In this document: piece after piece, positions 36,001-39,000 of the stretch
How the letters are laid out: each line of letters starts with the position of its first letter
Position numbering within the stretch: position 1 is the first letter of the stretch
From: Mytilus californianus
Lineage: Eukaryota
Assembly: GCF_021869535.1 (NCBI RefSeq)
Contig: NW_026262712.1
Span: 79,608,001 to 79,672,000, forward strand
Length of the DNA stretch: 64,000 nt
Reading direction: 5' to 3'
Made by a program: the position numbers

Positions 36001-39000
36001 CGCTGTGTGTTCAAATGACAATTTAATGCTTTCAAGCGCTTTCAATCAATCAATCAACAATTTGCTGCTGTGTAAAATTTGGTATATTGTCATTTGATAT
36101 ATTATTTATTCGTATATCTTTAATGACTTTTGATTATGTGTAACATTCTACTACATTGTATGCAATTTGTGTAGTGCTTTATGTGCATAATATGCCAATA
36201 ATGCTATGAAATCATAAAAAAAACATGTTTTACCTAGACTTACCTGGGTTAATAAAAAAATTTATTAATGAAGTGTTGTTACACTATAACCTATCAATAG
36301 CCCATTGCTTACGCAATAATTCTATTACCTCCGACATGAATTTATTAATACCAGTAAAATTCAAAATGTTGGAATAGTCAGAATAAGCCATTTACCTGTA
36401 TATTAATTAGATCAAAATTACTTATACAACAACTTAACTTACAACAACATTTACTTTTCTCTGTAGAAAATAGAGAAGGAATGTGTATTTATAAAATGCA
36501 GCAATAGCAGGCAGACATCATTATCAAAAATGTAAATAGCTGTAAATTTAAAGGAATTTCAATACAATCATAAGGTATTTGATATTTCTCTTTCCGTTAT
36601 TTATTGACGTTAAATTAATGACAAGGAAATAACGAAGTAAAAGTTTAAGTATTGCATCACAATCTTAATATCACTTGTAGTGACAACACTTATTTCATAT
36701 TTTCAAAGAGTGGACATTTGAATACACATGTGATTTAAATGACAGCATTTAATTTGGAGATTGAAGTAACTTTCTGATAACTCTATACGATATCCCCGTC
36801 ACTTTTTCTTCACCAAAGTCAACGTTGAGAAATCTAGTTAATACTTTATATATTGCATCGCCATGATACGGTCGTTATATGTACTATTTCGTACATTCGG
36901 ATCACTTTGTAAGTCAGAATCAACAATTAAAATGCATACAGGATTTAAATCATGCGAGTTCTATCATATATGTGAGTGTAAAAGAGACCAAGGATCATCG
37001 CTTTACATTGCAGATTGTTCAGGACTAAATATAACAGAAATATGGAGGTTTCCGAATATAATTTCAAAACTATCGCTACGAATGAATAGATTGGAGGTGA
37101 TTAAAGATAGTATCTTTTTTAAAAACAGACTTCTGAGAACATTGAATCTTTCATTCAATAGAATCAAAACAATTTCATCATCTTCTTTCATCGGGTTAGA
37201 AAAGTTGAAAGAACTCGACCTTCAACAAAACAATTTGAGTAAGATTAGTTTTACACACCAATGGTGTGCCAGGTTACAAAACTTGGTCTATTTAAATTTG
37301 AAAGGAAATTTTTATGATGAATATCAACCAGACATATCATTTTTAGTGCAATTGGAAATTTTGAAAATGGATTTTGTGTATGAAAAAACAACAATACTGA
37401 ATAAAAAGTTCAGTAATCTCAAACGGCTAAAGAGTCTGGATTTTTCTGGGTTAACAGGACATTGTTCAGTGCCATTTTTAACACCACATACATTCAAAAA
37501 TGTACCACACGTTCGAAATTTAAGTTTGGCTATGTGCAAAATAAAATCCTTGCAGAGAGGAACTTTTGATATGATGAAAAATATTACCTTCCTTGATTTA
37601 TCAGGAAATACATGCCTAAAATTTCAGGTGTTAGAAAACGTAACAGCAGACCTTCAGTTTTCCGCAATCAAAATTTTAAAAGTCAACAAAATCCATAAAG
37701 TCTTCGACATGAATACATATTTGCAGACTACTCATATACGGCATCTCAGTAACACATCAATCCAAGAAGTTCATATGGACAGTAACCGTCTTCAGCAAGT
37801 AGAACTGGGTGCTTTGAAATTTTTACCCAGGACATTGATCTATTTGTCAGTAAAAGACAATATGTTTTCCATAGTACCATACCTGTTTGACTTACTTACG
37901 TTGTCATTAGAAACTGTAGATGCATCCGGCATGTTTTCATTTCACACGGAAGATCGACATCCTGAAAAATGCAACTTAGATCTTGTGTGTACTTGGCACA
38001 CTGATGTAAGATATAATGACTTTCATGATTCTAAATTTAAACAATTGTTGTTTAAACAGGGTGAATTTGGTGGAACGCTCATACCCATACCTTACAAATT
38101 TAAGAAATTAATTTTCAGGTCTAGTGGATATAAATATAACATAACGGAAGTAGACTTATCAAATAATGAATTAGAAATGGTTGACCTGAGCAACAATATT
38201 TTGACACGTTGGATTGGCCCCTTTAACAATGCAAGGAATTTGACATACTTAGATCTTTCTTCAAATATGTGCTCGAATATTTTGACATTCTTCTTCAGTC
38301 CAGACTTCATCATGTTGAAAGAGCTGTCATTGAGTAATAATTTACTAGGACTGGCTTTACCATATGATATCCACGGAAACACATTCCAACACTTGTTTAA
38401 TGTAATGAAACTTGATTTATCTCAAAACAGAATATCAAAATTACCTAAACTGATTTTTAAGTCTCAAAGCAAAATGGAAATTCTGGATCTGAGTGACAAT
38501 TTTATCGAAAATATTGACTTTCAATTATCACATTTGATAAAGCTGTCATACCTAAATTTAAGAAATAATTTTATAACATTTATCGATAGTCATACTATTG
38601 TCGAGATTAATTGTTTAGATGACAAGAGGAACAACCTGTCTATAAACATGTTGGAGAACAAACTGGTATGCACATGTAATTCCAAACGTTTTATAGATTG
38701 GGTGGGAAGTACAAGTGTTCATATTGTTCATAAAAATCATTATTAATGTCAATTATCAACAGGAAAACGTGTCCTCATGAAAAATATTCCTGACCTCTAC
38801 AAAAAATTGGAGAAAGATTGTACATCTTATGAAGTTCTTACTTATGGACTAGTTGTAACAATTTTATTTTTTTTAATTGTTCTTATCATGGGTGTTTGTT
38901 ACCGATTTCGATGGAAGCTAAGGTATTTGTATTATATGGTCAAAATAAGATCTCGAAGTAAGATACAACAAATCGACGAAAATAAAAATGAATATATGTA

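What the first reader, a model, noticed from the sequence alone, without database searches (positions are those of the whole stretch)
36863..38746. Copy 4 may encode a secreted ectodomain-only (decoy) TLR
Seen: the first stop falls inside the LRRCT just before the TM, leaving an uninterrupted 627-aa SP+LRR frame. Both nonsense codons in the gene lie at or after this point, and there are no frameshifts. TTT to TAA needs two substitutions. Established: soluble TLR ectodomains exist in animals (e.g. fish TLR5S), and an intronless CDS has no downstream exon junction to trigger EJC-dependent NMD. Inference: damage confined to the LRRCT end, TM and TIR while 1.9 kb of ectodomain stays open suggests a retained soluble sensor or decoy. 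Caveats: the N-terminal hydrophobic stretch contains an Arg, the LRRCT is incomplete, and recent pseudogenisation alone could give this pattern.
Basis: partly seen in the sequence, partly recalled or inferred. Interest (0 to 1): 0.65.

Follow-up and report, generated by a model that had tools for sequence, protein, structure and literature searches.

The report
Recently broken mussel Toll-like receptor copy
One of five tandem Toll-like receptor genes in a mussel genome carries two stop codons near its end; it is most likely a young dead copy, and the idea that it survives as a secreted decoy cannot be excluded but has little support.

Summary
Copy 4 (36863-39424, +) is an intronless TLR coding sequence, one of five tandem copies in a Mytilus-like mussel. 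It has TAA at codon 628 (TTT in the four other copies), TAG at codon 794 (GAG elsewhere) and no frameshift.

- Pairwise dN/dS against copy 2 is 0.36 before the stop and 0.23 after it, so the predicted contrast is absent.
- On the copy-4 branch, omega is 0.41 for the ectodomain (omega = 1 rejected) and 0.53 after the stop (borderline relaxed).
- A plain "neutral since inactivation" model fits the substitutions as well as "ectodomain still constrained".
- Only the placement of the two lesions favours retention: p = 0.07, likelihood ratio 4.5-11.5, and this was noticed post hoc.

Against a working secreted product:
- The stop falls one residue before the third of four invariant LRRCT cysteines, so neither cap disulfide could form.
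- Arg10 interrupts the signal-peptide core.
- Gly338, conserved in at least 90% of 40 homologues, is Val.
- All seven closest database relatives keep the TIR domain.
- Two neighbouring copies are also broken.

Best reading: young pseudogene or null allele (about 0.72). Retained soluble ectodomain: about 0.15.

The parts
36863..38746 (+). Copy 4: open 627-codon frame (signal-peptide-like N-terminus, LRRNT cysteines, LRR solenoid, first half of LRRCT) ending in TAA
   Evidence: Pfam LRR_8 E = 8e-36; AlphaFold model mean pLDDT 86.4, matching TLR8, TLR3 and TLR4 ectodomains with probability 1.00
36890..36892 (+). Codon 10, Arg within the signal-peptide hydrophobic core (Leu in 6 of 6 other sequences with an N-terminus)
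   Evidence: uncharged run of only 6 residues; lowest Kyte-Doolittle maxima of the 7 N-termini compared (1.56 and 1.23)
37874..37876 (+). Codon 338, Val where at least 90% of 40 homologues have Gly
   Evidence: the only deviation of copy 4 at 65 strongly conserved ectodomain columns; copies 1 and 2 have none
38669..38677 (+). LRRCT Cys603-x-Cys605 (first and second cap cysteines), retained in the open frame
   Evidence: 9 of 9 invariant; aligned to the CTC of TLR3 LRRCT
38744..38746 (+). First nonsense codon TAA (codon 628; TTT in copies 1, 2, 3 and 5), one residue before the third LRRCT Cys (38747-38749)
38819..38821 (+). Fourth LRRCT Cys (codon 653), downstream of the stop
38834..38902 (+). 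Transmembrane segment (codons 658-680) still readable in frame, downstream of the stop
   Evidence: translation; alignment with intact copies and Mytilus proteins; boundaries set by eye
39005..39373 (+). TIR domain remnant, in frame, interrupted by the second stop
   Evidence: Pfam TIR E = 1.5e-17 and TIR_2 E = 6.5e-17 with X at the stop
39242..39244 (+). Second nonsense codon TAG (codon 794; GAG in the other copies)
39422..39424 (+). Ancestral stop codon of the gene (codon 854), aligned with the stops of copies 1, 2 and 5
35227..36862 (+). Upstream flank co-linear with that of copy 2 (12641-14569); divergence equals dS
   Evidence: JC 0.158-0.161
39425..40082 (+). Downstream flank co-linear with that of copy 2 (17129-17778)
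   Evidence: JC 0.169
14570..17128 (+). Copy 2, the intact sister paralogue (852 aa) used as reference
3847..6423 (+). Copy 1, intact paralogue (858 aa)
20664..23215 (+). Copy 3, heavily decayed pseudogene (7 in-frame stops, 10 frameshifting indels)
44350..46925 (+). Copy 5, a one-lesion pseudogene (1-bp deletion near codon 132, otherwise open)

Best explanation
Copy 4 is a recently inactivated member of a tandem array of intronless Toll-like receptor genes in a Mytilus-lineage mussel. It is a young pseudogene, or a null allele captured in this assembly. It arose with copy 2 by a segmental duplication of at least about 4.8 kb (dS about 0.17). It evolved under ordinary purifying selection for most of the time since. 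It then took a clustered three-base change that turned Phe628 into TAA inside the LRRCT cap, and a G-to-T change that turned Glu794 into TAG inside the TIR domain. The long open ectodomain frame is simply what is left after too little neutral time for more lesions. Shown: the lesions, the array, the divergences and the omega values. Inferred: the timing of the lesions and the absence of function.
For: (1) Setting: there are five TLR copies and no more. Copy 3 has 7 stops and 10 frameshifting indels, and copy 5 has a single 1-bp deletion, so breakage is common here. One-lesion copies with very long open frames also occur: copy 5 keeps a 718-codon frame. Oyster has 9 pseudogenes among 83 TLRs (PMC4346834, passages read). 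(2) Youth: pairwise dN/dS after the stop is still 0.23, and TIR is still recognised at E = 1e-17. (3) A two-epoch model with one neutral fraction f of about 0.2 for the whole gene has lnL -6711.01. This is no worse than keeping the ectodomain constrained (-6711.34). (4) With lesion terms included, the best pseudogene fit is f about 0.05-0.15. There the expected number of ectodomain lesions is only 1-3, so P(none) is about 0.06-0.35. (5) The truncated product looks impaired. The stop is one residue before the third of four cysteines that are invariant in 9 of 9 sequences, and this position aligns to the HYLC of the TLR3 LRRCT. In this motif the first Cys pairs with the third and the second with the fourth (PMC7744196, passage read), so both cap disulfides are lost. 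Arg10 cuts the uncharged signal-peptide run to 6 residues, the shortest of the 5 N-termini that carry Arg3, and gives the lowest hydrophobicity of the 7 compared. G338V hits a column conserved at 90% or more. S584C adds an unpaired Cys. (6) No truncated relative: the 7 of 7 closest database proteins (64-89% identity) all carry TIR.
Against: Both lesions lie in the last 26% of the gene (p = 0.07). On the copy-4 branch the ectodomain omega (0.405) does not differ from background (0.315; 2dlnL = 0.92), and omega = 1 is rejected (2dlnL = 11.76). The post-stop part rises to 0.525 against 0.171 (2dlnL = 3.90), and there omega = 1 is not rejected. When lesion counts are added to the codon likelihood, the model with a still-constrained ectodomain is 4.5 to 11.5 times more likely, depending on the lesion rate used. 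With M. edulis P0001 as outgroup, copy 4 shows no excess of amino-acid change over copy 2 in the ectodomain (35 against 28, p = 0.45). No frameshift occurs anywhere in 2562 nt, whereas the flanks show 19 frameshifting gaps per 323 mismatches.
Confidence: 0.72

Rival explanations
1. The nonsense codon at 628 converted a membrane TLR into a secreted, ectodomain-only LRR protein (a soluble sensor or decoy). Selection keeps it, while the TM and TIR parts, now untranslated, decay.
For: The lesion placement has p = 0.07. The likelihood ratio favours a constrained ectodomain by 4.5-11.5 once lesions are counted. On the branch, ectodomain omega is 0.41 with omega = 1 rejected, and post-stop omega is 0.53 against 0.17. 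The coding sequence is a single exon, matching 853-858-aa Mytilus proteins end to end, so a stop here has no downstream coding exon junction. Fish TLR5S (PMC7744196) and scallop LRR-only receptors (PMC5877582) show that soluble LRR sensors exist. The AlphaFold model of the 627 residues is a confident TLR-like solenoid (pLDDT 86.4).
Against: Substitution data alone do not prefer it. Rejection of omega = 1 applies to the whole branch since duplication, not to the time since the stop. The stop removes the third and fourth LRRCT Cys, leaving Cys603 and Cys605 unpaired. By contrast, TLR5S keeps an LRR_CT with one Cys pair. The signal peptide is the weakest of those compared. G338V and S584C are further defects. 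None of the 7 closest relatives lacks TIR. The hypothesis was framed after seeing the pattern, in an array where 2 of the 4 other copies are broken. The TIR-less Mytilus hits that were fetched (P0008, P0016, P0022, P0079) look like fragmentary or fused gene models, not ectodomain-only receptors.
Confidence: 0.15
2. The stops are sequencing or assembly errors, or somatic or haplotype-collapse artefacts, and the real gene is an intact 853-codon TLR.
For: Nothing else in the gene is broken, and all domains are recognisable. Mussel genomes are highly heterozygous with many near-identical paralogues (PMC7653742, search listing only).
Against: The lesions are four base substitutions, not homopolymer-length errors. 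Three of them cluster in 5 nt, and no paralogue in the window carries that string, so a mis-join with another window copy cannot explain it. Copy 4 is 7.6% diverged from its nearest copy throughout, with no mosaic block.
Confidence: 0.05
3. The truncated mRNA is translated but the product is neither secreted nor adaptive. It would be a misfolded, ER-retained or rapidly degraded fragment, tolerated because the array is redundant. A downstream ATG (38777) could at most give a TM plus partial TIR fragment of 155 residues.
For: The frame is open and the flanks are as well preserved as those of copy 2. A 155-codon ORF exists at 38777-39244.
Against: There is no expression evidence of any kind. In evolutionary terms this is the pseudogene reading with a transient product.
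Confidence: 0.06

Closest known systems
Pseudogenes within lineage-specific bivalve TLR expansions (for example 9 pseudogenes among 83 TLRs in Crassostrea gigas; PMC4346834, passages read)
   Same: An intronless, tandemly duplicated TLR paralogue with disabling mutations, lying next to intact and more decayed copies.
   Different: It is very young. It has only two nonsense codons, no frameshift, and every domain is still recognisable. The supplementary table listing the oyster pseudogenes could not be opened, so their lesion patterns were not compared.
Teleost soluble TLR5 (TLR5S)
   Same: The predicted product would be a signal peptide plus an LRR ectodomain without TM or TIR, of similar size (641 aa in Larimichthys crocea; PMC7744196).
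   Different: TLR5S is a separate gene that the passages read name in several fish species. According to that paper it retains an LRR_CT with one conserved Cys pair. Copy 4 is cut by a nonsense codon before the third LRRCT Cys, still carries a readable TM and TIR downstream, and has no truncated counterpart among its 7 closest relatives.
Scallop LRR-only pattern-recognition proteins CfLRRop-1 to -6 (review PMC5877582, passages read)
   Same: These are bivalve LRR proteins without TIR that are reported to bind microbial ligands.
   Different: They are small (1-4 LRR domains) and, as described, are not recent derivatives of a full-length TLR gene.
Vertebrate TLR3, TLR4 and TLR8 ectodomains (PDB 1ziw, 4g8a, 5wyx and others)
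   Same: The fold is the same: Foldseek probability 1.00, query TM-score 0.54-0.55 to TLR3 and TLR4. By sequence, TLR3 is the best solved match (E = 1e-38 for copy 2), and its LRRCT 'CTC...HYLC' aligns with 'CTC...HYFC' here.
   Different: Only 16-20% identity. There is a low-confidence insert at residues 373-400 after an invariant C-x5-C pair. NCBI's name 'toll-like receptor 4' on the Mytilus relatives is an automatic name, not orthology.

Membership tests
Toll-like receptor (LRR ectodomain, TM, TIR) | LRR solenoid ectodomain | tested here: met
   Pfam LRR_8 E = 8e-36. The model matches TLR ectodomains with probability 1.00.
Toll-like receptor (LRR ectodomain, TM, TIR) | Juxtamembrane LRRCT four-cysteine cap, TM helix and TIR domain, all translated in one frame | tested here: not met
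   All three are recognisable in the DNA. However, TAA628 precedes the third Cys and TAG794 interrupts TIR. Copies 1 and 2 meet this feature.
Soluble ectodomain-only TLR (TLR5S-like) | Functional signal peptide | tested here: inconclusive
   No SignalP was available. Arg10 replaces an otherwise invariant Leu. The uncharged run is 6 residues and the hydrophobicity is the lowest of 7 N-termini. AlphaFold draws a helix over residues 2-17.
Soluble ectodomain-only TLR (TLR5S-like) | Complete, capped LRR domain (LRRNT and LRRCT disulfides) | tested here: not met
   The LRRNT cysteines are present. The LRRCT is cut one residue before the third Cys, so neither the first-third nor the second-fourth pair can form (pairing taken from PMC7744196). 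The Pfam LRRCT model itself did not score, even at E up to 10, on the intact copy-2 segment, so the cap is defined by the cysteine pattern and the TLR3 alignment.
Soluble ectodomain-only TLR (TLR5S-like) | Product lacks TM and TIR | tested here: met
   The frame ends at codon 627, upstream of the TM at codons 658-680.
Soluble ectodomain-only TLR (TLR5S-like) | Truncated form conserved in related species or paralogues | tested here: not met
   The 7 of 7 closest database proteins (P0001-P0005, P0007, P0013) carry TIR.
Soluble ectodomain-only TLR (TLR5S-like) | Purifying selection on the ectodomain after the truncation, with neutrality downstream | tested here: inconclusive
   Branch omega is 0.41 before and 0.53 after the stop. 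The two-epoch models are indistinguishable on substitutions. The likelihood ratio is 4.5-11.5 once lesions are added.
Soluble ectodomain-only TLR (TLR5S-like) | Transcript and secreted protein observed | not testable with these tools
Unprocessed (duplicated) pseudogene | Disabling mutations relative to intact paralogues and orthologues | tested here: met
   There are two nonsense codons at positions that are sense codons in copies 1, 2, 3 and 5 and in 5 Mytilus proteins.
Unprocessed (duplicated) pseudogene | Relaxed constraint over the whole gene | tested here: inconclusive
   Whole-gene omega on the copy-4 branch is 0.42 against 0.29, with 2dlnL = 2.4. There are 11 singleton replacements at otherwise invariant ectodomain columns against 3 in copy 2, but this tracks branch length and disappears with P0001 as outgroup.

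The most novel reading that the evidence does not exclude
A single nonsense mutation inside the LRRCT of a mussel TLR created, in one step, a secreted LRR-only sensor or decoy that is now kept by selection while its TM and TIR parts decay. This would be an invertebrate, newly arisen analogue of fish TLR5S. It would show how tandem TLR arrays can generate soluble receptors without any change in gene structure.
Probability: 0.15. Interest if true: 0.6.

Novelty: new member of a known kind. Interest (0 to 1): 0.25.

Why it matters
If copy 4 is a young pseudogene, it is one more example of birth-and-death turnover in bivalve immune-receptor arrays. It is useful mainly as a dated snapshot: this 43-kb array holds intact, one-lesion, two-lesion and heavily decayed copies side by side. 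If the soluble-decoy reading were true, it would document a one-mutation route from a membrane TLR to a secreted LRR receptor in a protostome. That route would be directly testable by RT-PCR, haemolymph proteomics and allele frequencies.

Tried and rejected
- Pairwise Nei-Gojobori dN/dS and parsimony branch counts were informative about age only. One ectodomain change could not be classed, because its one-step intermediate reads as a stop.
- Counting singleton replacements at invariant columns gave 11 against 3. This first looked like relaxation of the copy-4 ectodomain. I dropped it as evidence after the tree and the relative-rate tests. The excess scales with branch length and depends on the outgroup: p = 0.015 with copy 1 but 0.45 with M. 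edulis P0001.
- Gene conversion as the source of the TAA was rejected, because no other window copy carries the changed string.
- A sliding-window scan found no mosaic block in the copy-4 ectodomain.
- The Pfam LRRCT model did not score on the cap region.
- The bacterial promoter and terminator scan of 35800-40200 is irrelevant for an animal gene and gave no excess: 23 sites against 26.2 expected.
- There are no tRNA genes in the window.
- N-glycosylation sequons: copy 4 lacks 3 sequons that copy 2 keeps (alignment columns 173, 476, 627). Each of these is also missing in 2 to 3 other sequences, so this is not informative.
- TIR-less Mytilus hits (P0008, P0016, P0022, P0079) were fetched as possible precedents. 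They look like fragmentary or fused gene models.
- Literature searches for a nonsense-truncated or soluble TLR in mussels or molluscs found nothing relevant. One search returned 4 papers, none on this. One search returned 4 papers, with only the scallop LRR-only proteins relevant. One search was also searched. These are searches of the held open-access library only.
- No eukaryotic genome, read or transcript collection was available. Orthologous Mytilus DNA therefore could not be used for codon models.
The oyster TLR table (Supplementary Table S1 of PMC4346834) was not seen.
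Full report
**What is there**

The window (64 kb, no N, 32% G+C) carries five head-to-tail copies of an intronless Toll-like receptor gene on the + strand. tblastn with copy 2 finds no further fragment.
- Copy 1 (3847-6423, 858 aa) is intact.
- Copy 2 (14570-17128, 852 aa) is intact.
- Copy 3 (about 20664-23215) is heavily decayed, with 7 in-frame stops and 10 frameshifting indels.
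- Copy 5 (44350-46925) has a single 1-bp deletion near codon 132 and is otherwise open.
- Copy 4 (36863-39424) is the finding.

The closest named proteins are Mytilus TLRs: M. edulis 79%, M. coruscus 78% (618 hits at E <= 0.001 among 8000 scored candidates). The host is therefore a Mytilus-lineage mussel. I did not try to identify the record. The intact copies match 853-858-aa Mytilus proteins end to end, so the coding sequence is one exon. UTR introns cannot be judged.

**Check of the observation**

All sequence statements hold.
- The ATG at 36863 opens 627 codons that end in TAA at 38744-38746. In the same frame there is TAG at codon 794 and the family's normal stop at codon 854.
- The only gap of copy 4 against copies 1, 2 and 5 is a 15-nt in-frame gap that intact copy 2 shares.
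- Codon 628 is TTT in copies 1, 2, 3 and 5. Copy 4 has TAA, and the preceding TAC became TAT, so three changes lie within 5 nt. This looks like one complex mutation. No other window copy could have donated it.
- Codon 794 is GAG to TAG.
- Pfam finds LRR_8 in the open frame, and TIR (E = 1.5e-17) downstream with X at the stop.
- Four cysteines (603, 605, 629, 653; pattern CxCx23Cx23C) are invariant in 9 of 9 aligned sequences, and the TM segment follows.
- The stop sits one residue before the third cysteine. phmmer aligns this stretch with the LRRCT of TLR3, 'CTC...HYLC' against 'CTC...HYFC'.

**Age and neutral yardstick**

Copies 2 and 4 are 92.4% identical over the coding sequence. They share co-linear flanks of about 1.6 kb upstream and about 0.66 kb, then more diverged stretches, downstream. 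Flank divergence (JC 0.158-0.169) equals dS (0.17), so the flanks serve as a neutral yardstick. They carry 23 gap events, 19 of them frameshifting, per 323 mismatches. A random substitution makes a stop with probability 0.047. Copy 3 gives an in-family calibration: at least 120 substitutions of its own, with 17 disabling lesions spread over the whole gene.

**Selection tests**

The part after the stop is the more conserved, so most of the divergence predates the lesions.

I wrote a GY94/F3x4 branch model on the tree ((c2,c4),c1,c5). The p-values are from chi-square with 1 df, by my arithmetic.

| Partition | Background omega | Copy-4 omega | Copy 4 vs background | Test of omega = 1 |
|---|---|---|---|---|
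| Ectodomain | 0.315 | 0.405 | 2dlnL 0.92, p about 0.34 | rejected, 2dlnL 11.76, p about 0.0006 |
| After the stop | 0.171 | 0.525 | 2dlnL 3.90, p about 0.048 | not rejected, 2dlnL 1.18 |

But a whole-branch omega averages the time before and after inactivation. I therefore fitted a two-epoch copy-4 branch: background omega, then omega = 1 for a fraction f of the branch.
- With one f shared by both partitions (plain pseudogene), the best summed lnL is -6711.01, at f about 0.2.
- With the ectodomain kept at background and only the downstream part relaxed, it is -6711.34, at f about 0.4.
- The substitutions therefore do not discriminate.

**Lesion placement**

Two lesions both falling in the last 226 of 853 codons has p = 0.070. 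I added Poisson terms for 'no lesion in the ectodomain' and 'one further lesion downstream'. The constrained-ectodomain model then leads by dlnL 1.50-2.45. That is a likelihood ratio of 4.5 (stops only), 10.4 (stops plus flank-calibrated frameshifts) or 11.5 (calibrated on copy 3). It is modest, and the hypothesis was prompted by the same pattern. Under the best-fitting pseudogene model (f about 0.05-0.15), the expected number of ectodomain lesions is about 1-3, so an intact frame is not unusual.

**Rate tests**

Copy 4 has 11 singleton replacements at otherwise invariant ectodomain columns, against 3 in copy 2 (282 invariant ectodomain columns). The protein tree leaves copy 2, copy 4 and M. 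edulis P0001 as an unresolved trichotomy within a well-supported clade (97/99). The relative-rate excess depends on the outgroup: 41 against 21 with copy 1 (p = 0.015), and 35 against 28 with P0001 (p = 0.45). I do not count this as evidence either way.

**Would the product work?**

- Cap. In this cysteine motif the first Cys pairs with the third and the second with the fourth. Fish TLR5S keeps an LRR_CT with one such pair (PMC7744196, passages read). Copy 4's product would end before the third Cys, so it loses both disulfides and leaves Cys603 and Cys605 free. S584C adds another free Cys that no other sequence has.
- Signal peptide. Arg10 replaces a Leu found in 6 of 6 other N-termini. This leaves a 6-residue uncharged run, against 8-22 in the four others that carry Arg3, and the lowest hydrophobicity maxima of the seven compared. 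No signal-peptide predictor was available.
- Conserved sites. Across 40 homologues, copy 4 deviates at 1 of 65 ectodomain columns conserved at 90% or more (G338V). Copies 1 and 2 and five of six close Mytilus proteins deviate at none.
- Fold. AlphaFold2 with that alignment gives a confident solenoid (mean pLDDT 86.4, pTM 0.81; low confidence at 15-25 and 373-400). It matches TLR8, TLR3 and TLR4 ectodomains. This shows the fold, not stability without the cap.
- Recalled, not from a call: uncapped TLR fragments have needed a grafted VLR cap to behave in solution. PDB entries named 'Toll-like receptor 4, Variable lymphocyte receptor B' do appear.
- Also recalled: UAA is the least leaky stop, so read-through is unlikely.

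**Comparative context**

The seven closest database proteins (64-89% identity) all carry TIR. The TIR-less Mytilus hits that I fetched are fragmentary or fused models.

From the literature:
- Oyster has 9 pseudogenes among 83 TLRs (PMC4346834, passages).
- TLR-like proteins without TIR are classed as 'LRR-only' (PMC8609888, passages).
- Scallop LRR-only proteins bind microbial ligands (PMC5877582, passages).
- Mussels show massive gene presence-absence variation (PMC7653742, search listing only).
- Searches for a soluble or nonsense-truncated TLR in mussels or molluscs found nothing pertinent in the held library.

**Verdict**

I weighed a likelihood ratio of about 5-10 against three things. 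First, the prior that only a small share of late-truncating lesions yield a selected soluble receptor. Second, the broken cap, the weakened signal peptide and the absence of truncated relatives. Third, an array in which two other copies are broken. On that basis I put about 0.72 on a young pseudogene or null allele, about 0.15 on a retained soluble ectodomain, and the rest on a sequencing or assembly artefact or a non-adaptive truncated product. It is a new member of a known kind, a TLR pseudogene in a bivalve expansion.

**What stayed unchecked**

The following stayed unchecked:
- transcripts, peptides and allele frequencies;
- orthologous Mytilus DNA;
- signal-peptide prediction;
- supplementary tables of the cited papers;
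- the closed metagenome and viral collections, which would not bear on an animal gene.

Noticed in passing
window 44350-46925 (+): Copy 5 is broken by a single 1-bp deletion (GTTTG to GTTG, near codon 132) and has no stop in the remaining 718-codon frame. It groups with M. galloprovincialis P0007 (100/100). It is a one-lesion pseudogene, or an N-terminally truncated gene, and serves as an internal control showing that long open frames survive here.
   Followed up: partly
window 20664-23215 (+): Copy 3 is a full-length but decayed TLR pseudogene. It has 7 in-frame stops and 10 frameshifting indels spread over the whole gene, and is 92% identical to copy 5.
   Followed up: yes
window about 38960-39420 and the matching 3' parts of copies 1, 2 and 5: The TIR-coding 3' ends of copies 1, 2, 4 and 5 are 93-95% identical at the nucleotide level, while their ectodomains are 67-93% identical. 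For example, copies 4 and 5 are 95% identical in TIR against 67-80% in the LRR region. The copy-5 branch length is 0.44-0.48 after the stop against 1.43-1.48 before it. This suggests concerted evolution (gene conversion) or synonymous constraint at the 3' end. The fixed tree used for the post-stop codon model may therefore be imperfect.
   Followed up: partly
window 14570-14630 (+): Intact copy 2 also has an odd signal peptide: a 1-codon deletion and a Glu at position 12 within the hydrophobic core, giving an uncharged run of 8 residues. M. edulis P0002 also has a Glu there.
   Followed up: no
window 37970-38065 (+), residues 370-400 of copy 4: An invariant C-x5-C pair (Cys370, Cys376) is followed by a variable loop of about 28 residues with low confidence (pLDDT below 50) in the middle of the solenoid. 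Copies 2 and 4 are 5 codons shorter here than copy 1. It recalls the internal cysteine clusters and Z-loop-like inserts of some TLRs.
   Followed up: no
window 58521-58982 and 61150-61518 (-): These are exon-like open frames of an aldehyde dehydrogenase gene on the minus strand (Pfam Aldedh E = 8e-07 for the first; the second was judged by eye only). They were scanned separately and not joined.
   Followed up: partly
window 28578-29430 (-) against 31233-32211 (+); 30161-30705; 47399-47883; 34258-34835: Repeats lie between the TLR copies. There is an inverted pair of about 0.85 kb (87-91% identical) with internal 21/42-nt tandem repeats, flanking a 167-nt satellite of 3.3 copies. There is also a 147-nt satellite of 3.3 copies, and a 578-nt self-complementary stretch. 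These are probably transposon remnants.
   Followed up: no
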